Source: a virus (lineage: Duplodnaviria > Heunggongvirae > Uroviricota > Caudoviricetes). From it: DNA of 14,286 bases. The first letter of the stretch is position 1, and the number at the start of each line of letters is the position of its first letter. Location: IMG/VR virus record IMGVR_UViG_2711768074_000014; one strand, 5' to 3'. The notes beneath the pieces are model-generated. The model was not told the DNA's origin. It searched no databases and was given only the letters and a program-made list of their open reading frames with translations. This document shows, piece by piece, positions 2,459 through 10,770 of the stretch. Made by a program: the position numbers and the translations under genes.

Positions 2459-2641
2459 AGTTACCAGTCTCATAGGAGCGGACAATTTTCCGTTAGGGCG
2501 GTAAATTGTACTTTGATACATGAAAATACGGGTTTTCTTGATTCAGACGCGCAGCGGTGTGTGTTTGTTTGCCGCTATAGCGAAATAAATCAGAAAATCA
2601 GACGCGGTCGTTCACTTGTTCAGCAACCAGATCAAAAGCCA

Positions 2642-2669
2642 TTGACTCAGCAAGGGTTGACCGTATAAT
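2642..2669 (+). promoter_or_regulatory. Candidate sigma70 promoter of argU
   Basis: TTGACT (2642..2647), 16-nt spacer, TATAAT (2664..2669), about 30 nt upstream of the tRNA 5' end. Confidence 0.6.
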
Positions 2670-2700
2670 TCACGCGATTACACCGCATTGCGGTATCAAC

Positions 2701-2777
2701 GCGCCCTTAGCTCAGTTGGATAGAGCAACGACCTTCTAAGTCGTGGGCCGCAGGTTCGAATCCTGCAGGGCGCGCCA
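2701..2777 (+). tRNA. argU: tRNA-Arg, anticodon UCU (reads AGA), 77 nt with encoded CCA
   Basis: Hand-folded cloverleaf: acceptor stem GCGCCCT/AGGGCGC, D arm TAGCTCAGTTGGATAGAGCA, anticodon stem-loop ACGAC-CTTCTAA-GTCGT (anticodon TCT), T arm GCAGGTTCGAATCCTGC, 3' CCA. Confidence 0.93.
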
Positions 2778-6394: not shown

Positions 6395-6757
6395 TTAACG
6401 ACCTGCTGCGCGGAGTTTTCCGTCAGGTTCACCGGCAAGAGTCAGTAATTGTCCCTGGTCTTCCTGCAGAATAGTCAGGCGACCACCGCGATTGACATAC
6501 ATCGGCGTTTCGGTGGTGTCTTCTTCGGAAATTTTCCCGCGGTTAGTTGGGCGAACATATGAGAGTTTGTGTTTGATTTTCACACGGTTCTCATCAAACG
6601 GTTCGATTTCCAGATTGAGTGAGACCTTCCCTTTGGTTTTCGTGTTCATCACACCGGAAGCGACCTCACTGAGAACTGCGCCGATTTTGGTTTCAAATAC
6701 GCCGCCGTCCAGCTCCCCGATAAATGCCTGCACATCAGTACTGCGTTCGCTAGCCAT
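6395..6757 (-). CDS. yfdP: Phage protein of unknown function (120 aa), YfdP-like
   Basis: Start set at ATG 6757 (MASERSTDVQAFIGELDGG...) with GAGGAG 7 nt upstream. The track ORF extends upstream to 6922, but that N-terminal part is Cys/Arg-rich and not protein-like. Confidence 0.6.
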   Translation of the reverse strand: MASERSTDVQAFIGELDGGVFETKIGAVLSEVASGVMNTKTKGKVSLNLEIEPFDENRVKIKHKLSYVRPTNRGKISEEDTTETPMYVNRGGRLTILQEDQGQLLTLAGEPDGKLRAAGR

Positions 6758-6806
6758 TTTGCTGCTCCTCATCATATCGACCCTGCAAGGTCGGTTGGTT
6801 TCTCCA

Positions 6807-6893
6807 CAAAACAGAGAAGAACACCTGCGGTGGCAGCCGCCCGGATGGATTGGGTTATGAGCCCGTCGTCCGGTGATGCTCTTCTCTGTTTTG
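6807..6893. other. Long hairpin: perfect 14-bp inverted repeat CAAAACAGAGAAGA / TCTTCTCTGTTTTG around a 59-nt GC-rich loop
   Basis: Arms at 6807..6820 and 6880..6893 are exact reverse complements. The region has open frames on both strands, consistent with GC-rich non-coding structured RNA or DNA. Confidence 0.5.
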
Positions 6894-6942
6894 CAAAAAA
6901 GGACGGTACCAGCCGGAAGCAAGGGTACAAACTGGTACCGCC
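6894..6942 (-). terminator. Candidate intrinsic terminator on the minus strand, upstream of the early-left operon
   Basis: Inverted repeat CGGTACCAG (6904..6912) / CTGGTACCG (6932..6940) with flanking G:C pairs. On the minus strand it is followed by UCC-UUUUUU (complement of the A6 run at 6895..6900). Confidence 0.45.
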
Positions 6943-7159
6943 AGGACTACACACAGCATAAAGTTGTGGTGCCGGGTGCCTCCCGGTGCCTGGCGAAGGT
7001 TGCACACCAGGCGGGTGGGTATCCACAGAAGGTCGACTGTCAGCCTCAACCTTAACCCGCGTGCGCTGAGCCGCATTCACCACAACGCTAAGGATTCTCT
7101 CTGGTTGAAAATACTTAGCTGTTATGTGCCTGCTTTTAGCCACATCAGGCGAGGTGGAC

Positions 7160-7227
7160 CTGGTTATTCCCCAACAACAAGGATTCGGTTAATCTGGATA
7201 TCCCCAACAACAATAAGAGTATTCAAT
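7160..7227 (+). repeat. Two tandem ~34-bp direct repeats sharing a perfect 13-bp core TCCCCAACAACAA
   Basis: Unit 1 7160..7193 CTGGTTATTCCCCAACAACAAGGATTCGGTTAAT; unit 2 7194..7227 CTGGATATCCCCAACAACAATAAGAGTATTCAAT. They end right at the candidate start codons of the orphan gene. Confidence 0.7.
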
Positions 7228-7251
7228 GTGATCGCTGAATTAACGGCAGCA

Positions 7252-7743
7252 ATGACGGCTATTCGTGAAACAGCCCAGATTGCAAAACTAATGAACGAGG
7301 CAAAAACTCAAGCTGAAGTAAATGCGGCTATTGGTGAGCTGAACTCAAAGCTTGCGTCTATTCAGCGCGAATGCGTGTCTCTCGTTGAACTGGTGGGCTC
7401 TTATCAAGAAATAAATGCTTCTCTCAAAGCTAAAATTGCAGAATTCGAAAACTTTGAGGCTCAGACGGAAGGCTATATCCTTAACCAACTTGAGTCGGGT
7501 ACTTTTGTATACTCGAAGGAGGTAATCGTGAACGGTGGCAGCATAACCATGCATCTTTGCCCAAAATGTTTTGGACAAAAGATAGTATCGATACTTCAAC
7601 CATTCCCGGTTAGCGAAGATGAGCTTTTTCATAAAAGCAGGTGCCTCCACTGTGAAAATAAGTTTCTGATGAATAAAAATCCGGATTACGTATCGCCTCC
7701 ATCCATTGAGGAGTTGTCCAGAAAACTTAACGGCAATCTGTAG
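7252..7743 (+). CDS. Orphan protein (~163 aa): N-terminal coiled coil plus C-terminal C4 zinc ribbon (CPKC-x26-CLHC)
   Basis: AT-rich ORF on the opposite strand to both flanking operons. N-terminus MTAIRETAQIAKLMNEAKTQAEVNAAIGELNSKLASIQRECVSLVELVGSYQEINASLKAKIAEFENFEAQ is heptad-like; C-terminus carries MHLCPKCFGQ...SRCLHCENKF. Followed by an intrinsic terminator. Start uncertain: ATG 7252 has a weak SD, GTG 7228 is the alternative; the in-frame extension back to 6964 is not protein-like. Confidence 0.6.
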   Translation: MTAIRETAQIAKLMNEAKTQAEVNAAIGELNSKLASIQRECVSLVELVGSYQEINASLKAKIAEFENFEAQTEGYILNQLESGTFVYSKEVIVNGGSITMHLCPKCFGQKIVSILQPFPVSEDELFHKSRCLHCENKFLMNKNPDYVSPPSIEELSRKLNGNL

Positions 7744-7782
7744 ATTACTACTGTTGTGGATATCCAGATTGTTAAAGAGCTA

Positions 7783-7806
7783 AGCGTCCTGTAGGGCGCT
7801 TTTTTG
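7783..7806 (+). terminator. Rho-independent terminator downstream of the orphan gene
   Basis: AGCGTCC-tgta-GGGCGCT, a 7-bp stem with one G:U pair and a 4-nt loop, followed by TTTTTT(G). Confidence 0.7.
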
Positions 7807-7888
7807 TTGCTAACGAATCATCCTGGACTTCATATGCCCCAGGCGGCTACTTCGTGGGCGTCCTGCCTGTTCGTTATCTTTGATATAA

Positions 7889-7917
7889 AATCTAACTTAA
7901 CTTAGTTATCATGACAA
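7889..7917 (-). promoter_or_regulatory. Candidate leftward early promoter (PL-like) with embedded operator-like CTTAG motifs
   Basis: On the minus strand: -35 TTGTCA (7917..7912), 17-nt spacer, -10 TAGATT (7894..7889). The spacer and flanks contain ACTTAACTTAGTTA, and CTTAG recurs at about 7950 and 7965, the same motif seen in the cI/cro intergenic region. Confidence 0.4.
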
Positions 7918-7970: not shown

Positions 7971-8597
7971 TTAGAGTTCGTATTGAACTCCTTTGACTAC
8001 ACCAATGATAAGGCAATTACCATTGATAGGGATGTTGGGATACCGAGGATTTAATGGCACTAAAAACTTTTGAGGGCCATCGATGACTAATTTTTTTACT
8101 GTAGCTTCGTTTGTTCCATCAAGTCGAGCGATGACTATTTTTCCATGACGAGGTTCTGCATCTGGATCTACAATCACTGTTGCGCCTTCTGGTATTGTTG
8201 GGAGGCCATTAGGGTTAGTCATGGAGTCACCTTTAACCTCTAATGCAAATGAGTTATCACCAACCTTTAATGATGTATCTACCCACTTGTCCACTTCACT
8301 AAACACTTCTGCTGCCCTGCACTCAGTAAACTGCCCAGCCTGAACCCACGATATTACAGGAACTCTGCGCATGTTTGTGACGAGTTTGCCTTCAAACTCA
8401 GCACCGTAAAGAATGTAATCTATTGACGTATTGAAGAACTTCGCTAATTTCGAAAGTGCCTCCCCGCCAGGGGTATTGATGTCTTTCTCCCAGTACCCCA
8501 CAGCAACGTCGCTTACTCCACAAAATTTACCCAATTCTTTCTGGGACGTTCTGGTAACTCTTCTCAGAGCTTTTATACGCTGACCAACCGTTTCCAT
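7971..8597 (-). CDS. cI: CI-type prophage repressor (208 aa): N-terminal XRE-like HTH plus C-terminal S24 (LexA-like) peptidase domain
   Basis: N-terminus METVGQRIKALRRVTRTSQKELGKFCGVSDVAVGYWEKD is an HTH; C-terminus ...ALEVKGDSMTNPNG...GATVIVDP...HGKIVIARL...ATVKKL has the GDSM serine and a downstream lysine. Divergent from cro. Confidence 0.88.
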   Translation of the reverse strand: METVGQRIKALRRVTRTSQKELGKFCGVSDVAVGYWEKDINTPGGEALSKLAKFFNTSIDYILYGAEFEGKLVTNMRRVPVISWVQAGQFTECRAAEVFSEVDKWVDTSLKVGDNSFALEVKGDSMTNPNGLPTIPEGATVIVDPDAEPRHGKIVIARLDGTNEATVKKLVIDGPQKFLVPLNPRYPNIPINGNCLIIGVVKGVQYEL

Positions 8598-8694
8598 AGG
8601 AGCACCATTTCTTTAATCGCTAAGTAATCTTAGTTTTTATTGACCAAAGATAGATTTGTAATTAGCATCTAACAAAACTTAGTTTGGAGGGCGT
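8598..8694. promoter_or_regulatory. Immunity-region operator/promoter (OR with PR, and probably PRM)
   Basis: Inverted half-sites CTAAG-taat-CTTAG (8620..8633), and further CTTAG/CTAAC motifs at 8661..8685. Rightward promoter candidate TTGACC (8640..8645), 17-nt spacer, TAGCAT (8663..8668). GGAGG lies 4 nt before the cro ATG. Confidence 0.6.
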
Positions 8695-9839: not shown

Positions 9840-10770
9840 ATTAACCGGCTATGTATGGGATGGTTGCGCTGCATCAGGCATGAAATTATCCAGCGTGGCA
9901 ATTATGGCCCGCCTGGCTGATTTCAGTAATGACGAAGGTGTGTGCTGGCCATCAATTGAAACCATTGCCCGCCAGATTGGCGCGGGGATGAGTACCGTCA
10001 GAACGGCTATCGCACGGCTGGAAGCAGAAGGCTGGTTAACGCGTAGGGCGCGTCGCCAGGGTAACCGCAATGCGTCGAATGTTTATCAGCTTAACGTTGC
10101 GAAGCTTCAGGCAGCGGCATTTTCTCAACTGTCAGATTCTGACCCGTCAAAATCTGACGCATCAAAATCTGACCCGTCAAAATTTGATGCGTCGAAATCT
10201 GGCAAAAAAGCGGGTTTTCACCCGTCAGAATCTGGTGGGGATCCGTCAGTAAAATCAAAACATGATCCGTCAGATAAAAAAACTTCTCGTCCGGACGCTT
10301 CGCAACCGGACACGCAGACGGCTGAACAGGATTTTTTAACTCGCCATCCTGATGCGGTTGTATTCAGCCCTAAAAAGCGCCAGTGGGGGACGCAGGATGA
10401 TTTGACCTGCGCACAGTGGCTCTGGAAAAAAATCATCGCCCTGTACGAGCATGCCGCCGAATGTGACGGCGAGGTGGTTCGTCCCAAAGAACCGAACTGG
10501 ACAGCCTGGGCAAACGAAATTCGCCTGATGTGTGTGCAGGATGGTCGTACTCATAAACAAATCTGCGAGATGTACAGCCGCGTCAGTCGCGATCCGTTCT
10601 GGTGCCGTAACGTGCTCAGCCCGTCGAAGCTGCGGGAAAAATGGGATGAGCTTTCCCTGCGCTTATCGCCGTCCGTCAGCACGTACACCGAAAAACGCGA
10701 AGACCCGTACTTCAAAGCCAGTTACGACAACGTGGACTACAGCCAGATCCCGGCAGGATTCAGGGGGTGA
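9829..10770 (+). CDS. Phage replication initiator (O-like, 313 aa) with N-terminal HTH and origin iterons inside the gene
   Basis: N-terminus ...LSSVAIMARLADFSNDEGVCWPSIETIARQIGAGMSTVRTAIARLEAEGWL is a winged-helix DNA-binding domain. The middle encodes DPSKSDASKSDPSKFDASKSG from tandem DNA repeats. Sits right of cro/CII as in lambda. Confidence 0.75.
   Translation: MSTKLTGYVWDGCAASGMKLSSVAIMARLADFSNDEGVCWPSIETIARQIGAGMSTVRTAIARLEAEGWLTRRARRQGNRNASNVYQLNVAKLQAAAFSQLSDSDPSKSDASKSDPSKFDASKSGKKAGFHPSESGGDPSVKSKHDPSDKKTSRPDASQPDTQTAEQDFLTRHPDAVVFSPKKRQWGTQDDLTCAQWLWKKIIALYEHAAECDGEVVRPKEPNWTAWANEIRLMCVQDGRTHKQICEMYSRVSRDPFWCRNVLSPSKLREKWDELSLRLSPSVSTYTEKREDPYFKASYDNVDYSQIPAGFRG
10133..10203 (+). 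repeat. Iteron array, probable replication origin (ori)
   Basis: Five repeats of a ~15-bp unit (ccg)TCAAAATCTGAC starting at 10133, 10147, 10162, 10177 and 10192; further degenerate copies and A-rich tracts follow up to about 10290. Confidence 0.7.

What the first reader, a model, noticed from the sequence alone, without database searches (positions are those of the whole stretch)
7160..7227. Tandem 34-bp direct repeats abutting the start of the orphan gene
Two adjacent ~34-bp units share a perfect 13-bp core (TCCCCAACAACAA) and end at the candidate start codons. They could be a binding array for a regulator or a structured 5' leader. A type III toxin-antitoxin RNA is a remote possibility, but there are only two repeats, no terminator between repeats and ORF, and the protein is not ToxN-like.
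Basis: seen in the sequence. Interest (0 to 1): 0.5.

Follow-up and report, generated by a model that had tools for sequence, protein, structure and literature searches.

The report
Conserved frame around swappable prophage defence gene
The two repeats are the left edge of a conserved non-coding frame, found in about a fifth of E. coli genomes, that brackets an exchangeable anti-phage gene in a prophage and pairs with a matching sequence next to an rRNA-type antitermination signal on the far side of that gene.

Summary
The repeat is real: TCCCCAACAACAA occurs at 7168 and 7201 and ends just before the conserved GTG start at 7228. Likeness between the units covers about 21 nt, not 34.

It is not private to this gene. 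The window is an SfV/CPS-53-like prophage. The same two units precede at least 12 unrelated genes at this slot between pL and yfdP, and homology breaks right after the second core. They occur in 1052 of 5426 complete E. coli genomes and in about ten other enterobacterial genera.

Every such cassette ends with an inverted copy of unit 2 (7745-7770), fused to an exact rrn-type boxA on the minus strand (7769-7780) and a GC hairpin. In an unbiased sample, 58 of 59 slots with repeats had boxA, against 0 of 55 without. The two arms covary, and they close a long-range helix in all 18 cassette types folded.

The "orphan" protein resembles Rip1, a known anti-phage pore protein.

Best reading, largely inferred: the units hold a weak promoter and leader for the defence gene. 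In the leftward pL transcript they also form the trailer strand of an rrn-like boxA/leader-trailer helix around the antisense cargo.

A type III toxin-antitoxin RNA is rejected.

The parts
7159..7190 (+). Unit 1: CCTGGTTATT-CCCC-AACAACAAGG plus a variable linker. Core 1 is at 7168-7180. TTCCCC (7167-7172) is the candidate -35.
   Evidence: Core 1 is invariant in every module seen, including L156, which lacks core 2, and F1055, which lacks the right arm and boxA.
7190..7195 (+). TAATCT, the candidate -10 of a weak sigma-70 promoter for the cargo gene, 17 bp after TTCCCC.
   Evidence: It scores 4.9 bits and is the best + strand candidate between 7150 and 7200, but ranks only 182 of 85,536 positions in the window. 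Variants have TATAAT (8.9 bits) or TATTAT (7.7 bits) at the same place, and the spacer length stays at 16-17 bp. TAATCT is retained in phage F1055, where the helix arm is replaced. This is an inferred function.
7191..7216 (.). Unit 2, the left arm of the long-range helix. Core 2 is at 7201-7213. Homology among cassettes ends right after core 2.
   Evidence: pair I1. Breakpoint at 7211 against SfIV and 689R6, and the same break in about 90 IMG/VR loci. Covariation with the right arm is shown.
7215..7230 (+). Cargo-specific Shine-Dalgarno (AAGAG) and GTG start codon.
   Evidence: Each cargo family brings its own ribosome-binding site 5-10 nt after core 2.
7228..7743 (+). Cargo gene: a 171-aa coiled-coil plus zinc-ribbon protein, Rip1-like (PHROG 1244; RefSeq WP_000559922.1, 'hypothetical protein').
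   Evidence: PDB 9oox_L 'ring interacting pore 1', E 2.7e-7, aligned over 137 residues including both CxxC motifs. Rip1 function is taken from the review PMC13434031.
7745..7770 (.). Right arm: an inverted, imperfect copy of unit 2 (TTACTACTGTTGTGGATATCCAGATT).
   Evidence: pair I1. A right arm is present in the module types examined that carry a boxA. It pairs with unit 2 in the minimum-free-energy fold of all 18 cassette types folded. RNAalifold recovers the helix independently.
7769..7780 (-). boxA: GCTCTTTAACAA on the minus (pL-sense) strand, the sequence I recall as the E. coli rrn boxA. The helix arm starts at its last two bases.
   Evidence: It is the only exact copy in the window, and the core GCTCTTTAA occurs once in a complete 45-kb phage. 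It was found in 58 of 59 slots with repeats and 0 of 55 without. Its first 10 nt are unpaired in the window's predicted pL RNA fold and in most other types.
7782..7801 (.). GC-rich hairpin. On the + strand it is followed by a T-run and would terminate cargo transcription. On the minus strand it sits 1 nt 5' of boxA, the position of boxB in rrn leaders.
   Evidence: (8-pair stem, then TTTTGTTGCT). In other cassette types a different GC hairpin occupies the same place without a T-run.
7889..7917 (-). pL: TTGTCA-17-TAGATT, overlapped by a CI operator (7886-7911). It is the source of the leftward transcript that crosses the cassette.
   Evidence: 11.7 bits, the best minus-strand promoter in the window. 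The operator family is D1.

Best explanation
The two units are the left border of a conserved non-coding frame. The frame brackets an exchangeable cargo gene between pL and the first early-left gene (yfdP) of SfV/CPS-53-like prophages. The cargo here is a Rip1-like anti-phage gene. The frame has two layers. (1) On the + strand, core 1 (TTCCCC), a 17-bp spacer and TAATCT form a weak sigma-70 promoter. Core 2 is then the first transcribed bases, an unstructured C/A-rich leader placed directly before each cargo's own ribosome-binding site, so the cargo is made in the lysogen. (2) In the leftward pL transcript the order is: GC hairpin, single-stranded boxA, right arm, about 0.5-0.9 kb of antisense cargo, then the complement of unit 2. 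The right arm pairs with the complement of unit 2 in a helix of about 13-26 bp, and in about half of the cassette types unit 1 adds a second helix. This copies the rRNA-operon layout of boxB, boxA and leader strand, then a long insert, then trailer strand. I infer that boxA recruits NusB/NusE and partners, so that pL transcription crosses the long untranslated antisense stretch without Rho termination. I also infer that the boxA-tethered leader strand captures the trailer strand and loops the cargo out, probably creating an RNase III site. Antisense read-through would then switch off the defence gene when the prophage itself goes lytic. Shown here: conservation, breakpoints, the association with boxA, complementarity, covariation and the predicted folds. 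Inferred: the promoter, the strand in which the helix acts, Nus binding, Rho resistance, RNase III cleavage and silencing.
For: Shared frame. The same units precede at least 12 unrelated cargo families, and homology ends right after core 2.

Spread. The leader is in 1052 of 5426 complete E. coli genomes and about ten other genera.

Two-sided module. In a sample anchored on the conserved left flank, 58 of 59 slots with repeats have boxA within 1.4 kb, against 0 of 55 without repeats.

boxA. The exact 12-mer GCTCTTTAACAA is unique in the window, and its core is unique in a whole 45-kb phage. So it belongs to the cassette and not to a genome-wide nut system. It is predicted single-stranded between the hairpin and the helix.

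Helix.
- The arms are 26 nt and 85% complementary in the window.
- The helix appears in the minimum-free-energy fold of all 18 cassette types folded, with 9-30 arm pairs.
- The two main SfV-type cassettes at the same slot (L129, L130) show none; two rarer repeat-free types show some end pairing.
- On an ungapped alignment 75.5% of cells are paired, against 37-46% when the partner is slid. Thirteen pairs change on both sides, and 0 of 500 shuffles reach the observed values.
- RNAalifold finds the helix on its own.

Lineage-specific compensations.
- L156: AATCTGGATGAC with GTCATCCAGATT.
- L212: AATCTGAATACC with GGTATTCAGATT.
- Type B: GTAACCCTC with GAGGGTTAC.
- Klebsiella: core 2 CAACGAC with GTCGTT.
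- Cognate right arms rank 0-6 of 41 for divergent left arms.

Strand hint. The perfect part of the helix (7191-7203) overlaps the candidate -10 and start site. It would therefore lie largely outside a cargo mRNA starting near 7202 but inside the pL RNA.

Promoter. The TTCCCC to -10 spacing is conserved at 16-17 bp, with TATAAT or TATTAT in variants. TAATCT is kept in F1055, where the arm is lost.

Other points. pL is the strongest minus-strand promoter in the window, and the terminator scan found no minus-strand terminator between it and the repeats. The cargo is Rip1-like, a protein reported to be triggered by terminase or portal rings (PMC13434031). The rrn architecture and the idea that boxA tethering promotes the leader-trailer helix come from PMC10250234. 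boxA protecting long untranslated CRISPR transcripts from Rho comes from PMC7665894.
Against: There is no transcript or binding data of any kind.

The helix is equally possible in the + sense. The minus-sense excess of G.U cells (62 against 21) equals what the A/C-rich left arm predicts, and duplex z-scores are similar on both strands.

The promoter in this window is weak: 4.9 bits, rank 182 of 85,536 positions.

The model does not explain why the same 11-13-nt core is kept twice. Unit 1 joins a helix in only about half of the cassette types.

Type B arms give weak duplex z-scores.

SfV-type phages manage without boxA or a helix, although they also carry a + strand ORF in the slot.

The antisense cargo RNA shows no C-over-G bias that would mark a strong Rho site.

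The sequences compared are related, so the shuffle statistics overstate independence.
Confidence: 0.42

Rival explanations
1. The helix acts in the cargo mRNA (+ sense). The 5' leader (unit 2, next to the Shine-Dalgarno) folds back on the 3' untranslated region just before the terminator. This closes the mRNA into a stable, poorly translated form, like the fbi-tac fold-back of hok mRNA. The two C/A-rich cores (AACAACAA, which fits the AAYAAYAA Hfq motif as I recall it) might add Hfq-type control. Unit 1 would be an alternative pairing partner and so a two-state switch.
For: The helix forms equally well in + sense full-length folds, in the minimum-free-energy structure of all 18 types (window). 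The left arm ends 0-8 nt before each cargo's Shine-Dalgarno. In SfIV-type cassettes the right arm pairs at least as well with unit 1 as with unit 2 (hand pairing). The leader is unusually unstructured locally, so it is free to pair at long range. Potentially toxic cargo such as a pore former fits tight translational control.
Against: It needs a start site upstream of 7191, and no promoter-like site is found there on the + strand. The only candidate -10 lies inside the arm. It does not explain the invariant boxA, which reads as boxA only on the minus strand, or its 58/59 against 0/55 association with the repeats. In cassette types whose hairpin lacks a T-run, the 3' end of the mRNA is undefined.
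Confidence: 0.22
2. The cores are DNA sites for a sequence-specific protein: a repressor or activator of the cargo promoter. Core 1 would cover the -35 region and core 2 the start site, three helical turns apart. The inverted copy beyond the gene would be a third site, allowing a DNA loop.
For: Core 1 is conserved as sequence, not as a pairing partner, even where core 2 or the right arm is missing. The 33-bp spacing puts the two cores on one face of the DNA. The cores flank the candidate -10.
Against: No further copy of the core exists in the window or in a complete 45-kb phage genome, so no regulon and no candidate regulator are evident. Spacing varies between 33, 34 and 35 bp. The right arm keeps complementarity and not the core sequence: L156, type B, L039 and L128 lack GTTGGGG. 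The C-run length of core 2 varies from 3 to 5.
Confidence: 0.15
3. The units and their inverted partner have no regulatory role. They are recombination anchors, or scars of the way cassettes are acquired: conserved boundary sequences for homologous exchange, terminal inverted repeats of a mobile cassette, or gene conversion between inverted copies.
For: Breakpoints cluster exactly at the edge of core 2 and inside the right arm. Many unrelated cargoes sit between identical flanks. Gene conversion between inverted repeats could mimic covariation.
Against: The arms are not at the ends of the unit that is exchanged against SfV-type phages. Those breaks lie at 7157 and 7812, about 33 and 42 bp outside the arms. 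No target duplication was seen. The frame was found only at this slot. No empty site exists in 5426 genomes or in IMG/VR. No inverted cargo orientation was seen. Arm extensions into cargo-specific sequence stay complementary. The conserved boxA is not explained.
Confidence: 0.1
4. The repeats encode a type III antitoxin RNA that neutralises the downstream protein.
For: There are two adjacent direct repeats of about 33 nt immediately upstream of a small gene in a prophage.
Against: The protein is Rip1-like and not ToxN, AbiQ or CptN. There is no terminator between the repeats and the ORF. Only about 21 of 34 nt are repeated. The same repeats precede at least 12 unrelated proteins. No local RNA structure is predicted.
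Confidence: 0.01

Closest known systems
E. coli rRNA operon leader: boxB, boxA and boxC followed by the leader-trailer helix that brackets 16S rRNA (rrn antitermination complex; PMC10250234)
   Same: In pL sense the order is GC hairpin, then GCUCUUUAACAA (the sequence I recall as the rrn boxA), then a strand that pairs across a long insert with a trailer strand. The helix is at least 17 bp in most types and long enough for RNase III. boxA is predicted single-stranded.
   Different: The insert is the antisense of a protein-coding defence gene, 0.5-0.9 kb long, and not a structural RNA. The element sits in a prophage early operon. The trailer side also appears to carry a promoter for the opposite strand. 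No binding, cleavage or antitermination has been tested.
boxA elements upstream of CRISPR arrays and other long untranslated RNAs that block Rho (Stringer et al. 2020, PMC7665894)
   Same: A lone boxA, without a phage N system, sits at the head of a long stretch that is not translated in that direction. About 1.1 kb separates pL from yfdP here.
   Different: Here boxA is fused to a long-range helix and travels with an exchangeable gene cassette. Rho dependence is untested, and the antisense RNA shows no C-rich bias.
Lambda nutL and the N-leader (boxA, boxB, then an RNase III-sensitive stem before N)
   Same: The position is the same, just downstream of pL in a lambdoid early-left operon. Both have a boxA followed by a double-stranded RNA element.
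   Different: The hairpin comes before boxA and not after it. No N-like arginine-rich protein was noticed among the ORFs examined, and no second boxA (nutR) exists in the phage. The stem encloses a whole gene.
Phage morons and prophage defence hot spots (for example lambda rexAB or sieB next to the immunity region, and P2/P4 hot spots)
   Same: A variable slot between conserved genes is filled with unrelated small genes. This cargo has its own terminator and belongs to a known defence family, Rip1.
   Different: The cargoes share one conserved two-sided non-coding frame with complementary ends and a boxA. As far as I know, that is not part of the moron concept.
hok/sok-type mRNA fold-back (fbi-tac pairing of 3' and 5' ends)
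   Same: Long-range pairing between sequences next to the ribosome-binding site and the 3' end of a transcript that encodes a potentially membrane-damaging protein.
   Different: No Hok-like peptide, no Sok-like antisense promoter and no mok reading frame. Whether the 5' arm is in the mRNA at all is doubtful.

Membership tests
Type III toxin-antitoxin (ToxIN / AbiQ / CptIN) | Toxin of the ToxN/AbiQ/CptN endoribonuclease family | tested here: not met
   No such Pfam hit. The protein matches Rip1, PDB 9oox, E 2.7e-7.
Type III toxin-antitoxin (ToxIN / AbiQ / CptIN) | Array of near-identical repeats of about 34-36 nt, separated from the toxin gene by a terminator | tested here: not met
   Only about 21 nt are shared between the two units. 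Tandem Repeats Finder is silent. There is no terminator between 7160 and 7228.
Type III toxin-antitoxin (ToxIN / AbiQ / CptIN) | Repeats specific to their cognate toxin | tested here: not met
   The same units precede at least 12 unrelated proteins.
boxA / Nus-factor antitermination element (rrn type) | boxA consensus on the transcribed strand | tested here: met
   GCTCTTTAACAA is exact at 7769-7780 on the minus strand. The core GCTCTTTAA is kept across genera. The rrn consensus itself is from my own knowledge.
boxA / Nus-factor antitermination element (rrn type) | Location early in a long, poorly translated transcript, downstream of a promoter | tested here: met
   pL is at 7917-7889. boxA lies about 100 nt downstream. 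No credible minus-strand ORF occurs before yfdP at 6757.
boxA / Nus-factor antitermination element (rrn type) | boxA accessible, with a boxB-like hairpin just upstream | tested here: met
   Predicted folds only: the window and most of the 22 other modules examined.
boxA / Nus-factor antitermination element (rrn type) | Binds NusB/NusE (and SuhB) and confers resistance to Rho | not testable with these tools
   Needs ChIP, gel shifts, and reporter assays with and without bicyclomycin.
rRNA-like leader-trailer helix | Complementary strands flanking a long insert, supported by covariation | tested here: met
   with compensations.
rRNA-like leader-trailer helix | Formed in the transcript that carries boxA and cleaved by RNase III | not testable with these tools
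   The strand is not resolved by G.U counts or duplex energies.
Phage moron / prophage defence cassette | Replaced by unrelated genes at the same locus in related phages | tested here: met
Phage moron / prophage defence cassette | Own promoter | tested here: inconclusive
   TTCCCC-17-TAATCT scores 4.9 bits here and 7.7-8.9 bits in variants. There is no transcript data.
Phage moron / prophage defence cassette | Own terminator | tested here: met
   Hairpin 7782-7801 plus a T-run on the + strand. This does not hold in all cassette types.
Operator or iteron array for a DNA-binding protein | Further copies of the motif at other regulated sites, or a cognate protein | tested here: not met
   No other copy in the window or in the 45-kb phage PhiR49_1.
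Mobile cassette with terminal inverted repeats or an attC-like site | Inverted repeats at the exact ends of the mobile unit, target duplication, and copies at other loci | tested here: not met
   Breaks against SfV-type phages lie outside the arms. The frame was seen only at this slot. No empty site was found.

The most novel reading that the evidence does not exclude
SfV/CPS-53-like prophages carry a dedicated 'socket' for defence genes. It is an rrn-style boxB-boxA-leader/trailer-helix module in the pL transcript. The module loops out, and perhaps excises by RNase III, the antisense of whatever gene is plugged in. This would keep the early-left operon Rho-proof and silence the defence gene when the prophage itself goes lytic. 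The trailer side would double as the cargo's promoter and leader. That would be the first use of the ribosomal leader-trailer and Nus chaperone logic outside rRNA to make a protein-coding cassette transcriptionally 'transparent'. It would also explain how unrelated defence genes can be swapped at one site.
Probability: 0.3. Interest if true: 0.78.

Novelty: new variant of a known kind. Interest (0 to 1): 0.6.

Why it matters
About one complete E. coli genome in five carries this unannotated frame, and it holds a rotating set of small genes. One of these now falls in a known defence family (Rip1), and the rest are uncharacterised. If the frame marks defence cargo, it is a simple sequence handle for finding new anti-phage genes across Enterobacteriaceae.

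If the boxA/helix reading is right, it shows how a prophage can host a gene pointing against its own early operon without losing that operon to Rho. It also shows how the prophage could disarm a self-triggerable pore protein on induction. Finally, it would extend the Nus-factor and leader-trailer mechanism, so far tied to rRNA, to mobile protein-coding cassettes. Every step can be tested with one inducible lysogen and a handful of point mutants.

Tried and rejected
- **Coding reading of the repeats.** The frame stays open upstream of GTG 7228 back to 6964. I rejected a coding role because core spacing is 33, 34 or 35 bp in variants, and each cargo has its own ribosome-binding site and start.
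- **Known RNA families.** Rfam gives nothing for 7160-7227. The only hit nearby is the STnc100-like element to the left.
- **Local RNA structure.** The repeat region is less stable than its shuffles on both strands.
- **Strand assignment.** G.U asymmetry is not informative once composition is considered. The same holds for duplex z-scores.
- **Second helix from unit 1.** It pairs with the segment right of the hairpin in only about half of the types.
- **Rho-site composition of the antisense cargo RNA.** No C-over-G bias was found.
- **Other promoters.** No sigma-70-like promoter was found upstream of unit 1 or on the minus strand within 7100-7270. By eye, the region shows no sigma-54, sigma-E or sigma-32 match.
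- **Cargo-less version of the frame.** None in IMG/VR (two searches were malformed patterns) and none in 5426 E. coli genomes.
- **E. coli K-12.** CPS-53 has lost everything right of 6776, so K-12 data sets cannot help.
- **Cargo annotation.** PADLOC, Pfam and NCBIfam gave nothing useful for the window protein. PDB searches for two other cargo families were empty.
- **Literature.** Nothing was found on this locus for SfV/SfII immunity regions, the mEp phages or PhiR49.

Full report
**Observation.** The window is an SfV/SfIV/CPS-53-like lambdoid prophage of E. coli.
- The exact 13-mer TCCCCAACAACAA lies at 7168-7180 and 7201-7213, 33 bp apart.
- Likeness between the two units extends 5' to CTGG-W-TAT, about 21 nt in all. 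The rest of each '34-bp unit' is unrelated, and Tandem Repeats Finder does not call the array.
- The array ends at GTG 7228, the in-frame start of a 171-codon ORF. That start position is kept in diverged homologues, as ATG in a Klebsiella phage.
- Only 8 of 500 dinucleotide shuffles of the window contain any 13-mer repeated within 60 nt.

**Context.**
- To the right lie pL (TTGTCA-17-TAGATT, 7917-7889, minus strand) with a CI operator, the LexA-like repressor gene (7971-8597, minus strand) and cro.
- To the left lie a conserved 400-nt non-coding stretch with a sub-threshold STnc100 match (6893-7116, minus strand) and yfdP (6395-6757, minus strand).
- The gene behind the repeats therefore points against the pL transcript, which must cross it to reach yfdP.

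**The repeats are shared by many genes.**
- Homology with SfIV and phage 689R6 runs through both units and stops at 7211, right after core 2. It resumes at 7764.
- SfV, SfII and mEp460_4F5 lack the units altogether, with breaks at 7157 and 7812.
- A scan of IMG/VR found about 90 loci with the two cores. In all of them homology ends after the second CCCCAACAAC, and a different gene follows with its own ribosome-binding site.
- At least 12 unrelated cargo families were seen. They include the window type (PHROG 1244), the ECs1072 family with a convergent 68-aa ORF, a 26-29-aa proline-rich peptide with a two-helix membrane protein, and a signal-peptide protein.
- The leader is present, unannotated, in 1052 of 5426 complete E. 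coli genomes. It is also in Klebsiella and Salmonella phages and about ten further enterobacterial genera.
- Core spacing of 33, 34 or 35 bp in variants rules out a coding role.

**The other half of the frame.**
- Beyond the stop codon lies an inverted, imperfect copy of unit 2 (7745-7770; pair I1).
- It runs into TTGTTAAAGAGC, which on the minus strand reads GCTCTTTAACAA. I recall this as the E. coli rrn boxA. It is the only exact copy in the window, and its core is unique in a complete 45-kb phage genome.
- A GC hairpin follows at 7782-7801. In this cassette type it is also a + strand terminator.
- This right end recurs behind unrelated cargoes and in other genera.
- In a sample anchored only on the conserved left flank, 58 of 59 slots with repeats have boxA, against 0 of 55 without. 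Left repeats and right boxA are thus one module.

**Complementarity is what is conserved in the arms.**
- Folding the whole cassette puts a helix between the left repeats and the right arm into the minimum-free-energy structure in all 18 cassette types tried, on both strands, with 9-30 arm pairs.
- The two main SfV-type cassettes at the same slot (L129, L130) show none. Two rarer repeat-free types, L180 and L133, show 11 and up to 30 end-to-end pairs.
- On an ungapped alignment of 24 variants, 75.5% of cells pair, against 37-46% with slid partners. Thirteen pairs change on both sides, and no shuffle of 500 reaches the observed values. RNAalifold recovers the helix unaided.
- Lineage-specific compensations: L156, which lacks core 2, has AATCTGGATGAC with GTCATCCAGATT. 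L179 has AATCTT with AAGATT. L212 has AATCTGAATACC with GGTATTCAGATT. Type B has GTAACCCTC with GAGGGTTAC. The Klebsiella phage changes core 2 to CAACGAC and its arm to GTCGTT.
- For divergent left arms the cognate right arm ranks 0-6 of 41.
- These sequences are related, so the statistics are indicative and are not probabilities.

**Which strand?**
- G.U pairs favour the minus sense by 62 to 21 cells, but that is exactly what the A/C-rich left arm predicts. Duplex z-scores are similar on both strands. The counts therefore do not decide.
- Three indirect points favour the pL (minus-sense) RNA.
  - boxA is meaningful only on that strand and abuts the arm. In the predicted pL RNA, boxA is single-stranded between the hairpin and the helix.
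  - In cassette types whose hairpin lacks a T-run, the hairpin-boxA-arm order is still kept.
  - The perfect part of the helix (7191-7203) overlaps the only plausible cargo -10 and start site. It would therefore be largely absent from the cargo mRNA.
- The order hairpin, boxA, leader strand, long insert, trailer strand is that of rRNA operons. There the Nus-factor complex resists Rho, and boxA tethering is thought to promote the leader-trailer helix, which RNase III then cuts (PMC10250234). A lone boxA also protects long untranslated CRISPR transcripts from Rho (PMC7665894).

**The + strand layer.**
- TTCCCC (in core 1), 17 bp and TAATCT is the best + strand promoter candidate in 7150-7200. 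It is weak: 4.9 bits, rank 182 of 85,536 positions.
- Variants carry TATAAT or TATTAT at the same place (8.9 and 7.7 bits), with spacers of 16-17 bp.
- Salmonella phage F1055, which has lost the right arm and boxA, keeps both cores and TAATCT while the arm bases change.
- Transcription would start at core 2. That gives a short, G-poor leader that is less structured than its shuffles.
- This layer is inferred. It does not explain why the same core is kept twice.

**The cargo.** The 171-aa protein matches PDB 9oox chain L, 'ring interacting pore 1 (Rip1)', at E 2.7e-7 over 137 residues, including both CxxC pairs. A review describes Rip1 as a single-protein anti-phage sensor and pore. It assembles around small-terminase or portal rings, and its relatives are mostly prophage-borne (PMC13434031). 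A complete phage with this module, PhiR49_1, has lambda-like Nu1 and portal genes. A prophage carrying such a gene would gain from switching it off during its own lytic growth, and antisense pL read-through offers that. This is inference.

**Rivals.**
- The same helix in the cargo mRNA, a hok-like fold-back, remains possible if transcription starts upstream of 7191.
- A DNA-binding protein recognising the cores is not excluded. However, the motif is absent elsewhere in the phage, and the right arm keeps pairing and not sequence.
- A recombination scar or terminal-inverted-repeat reading fits the clustered breakpoints. It does not fit the positions of the arms inside the exchanged unit, the lack of empty sites or the boxA.
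- A type III toxin-antitoxin RNA fails every defining feature tested.

**Verdict.** The element is a widespread, unannotated, two-sided frame around an exchangeable prophage gene slot. It is a new variant of the moron or defence hot-spot theme, with an rrn-like boxA/long-range-helix architecture whose function remains to be shown.

Noticed in passing
window 6893-7116 (-), with hairpins to 6807: There is an STnc100-like RNA element here (Rfam RF02076, 40.3 bits, below the gathering score of 47). It ends in a stem plus U6 terminator on the minus strand at about 6895-6940. A second 24-bp-arm hairpin follows at 6807-6893. RefSeq annotates 6772-7083 as a frameshifted pseudogene. STnc100 and PasD RNAs are reported next to Q antiterminator genes, yet this copy lies between pL and yfdP. 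That suggests a terminated leader needing antitermination.
   Followed up: partly
window 7228-7743 (+): The 'orphan' protein is a Rip1-family (ring interacting pore 1) homologue: PDB 9oox_L, E 2.7e-7. RefSeq, PADLOC 2.0, Pfam and NCBIfam give it no name.
   Followed up: yes
window 6757-7882 (-): About 1.1 kb lies between the pL start and the yfdP start codon without a credible minus-strand ORF in this cassette type. That is an unusually long untranslated early leader.
   Followed up: partly
window 7141-7157: The palindrome CCAC-N10-GTGG lies immediately left of unit 1. It is kept in SfV-type and type C modules, with changes that extend or preserve the pairing (GCCAC..GTGGA against ACCAC..GTGGT). 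It could be a small hairpin or a dimer-binding site.
   Followed up: no
window 7080-7097: A degenerate third direct copy of unit 1 (CCACAACGCTAAGGATTC against CCCCAACAACAAGGATTC) lies inside the STnc100-like element. As the two would be transcribed in opposite directions, the RNAs could pair.
   Followed up: no
window 7734-7745 with 7760-7771: The 3' end of the Rip1-like ORF contains a further AATCTGTAGAT copy. It can pair locally with the right arm, giving an alternative hairpin just after boxA in pL sense. It is kept in homologous cargoes, with CAGATT changed to CGGATT.
   Followed up: no
L002 (SfV, U82619) 2487-2732 (+): SfV and many related prophages have an unannotated 81-aa + strand ORF in the same slot. 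It has its own hairpin leader and converges on the annotated orf33. These cassettes have no repeats, no boxA and no long-range helix.
   Followed up: partly
L003 2527-3139; many IMG/VR loci: The commonest cassette (SfIV type) holds two convergent, overlapping ORFs. One is an ECs1072-family protein (NF033230, + strand). The other is a 68-73-aa protein (PHROG 1744, minus strand) whose ribosome-binding site lies about 25 nt after the right arm. Another family pairs a 26-29-aa proline-rich peptide with a two-helix membrane protein of about 150 aa (PHROG 6315).
   Followed up: partly
window 7886-7911, 8614-8639, 8663-8688: CI operator family with half-sites CTAAS-N4-CTTAG, overlapping pL and the pR/pRM region.
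   Followed up: no
window 10138-10201: There are four to five 15-bp iterons (TCTGACCCGTCAAAA) inside the replication gene, the other close 13-mer repeat in the window. In E. coli K-12 the same iterons are joined directly to yfdP by the deletion that removed this whole region.
   Followed up: partly
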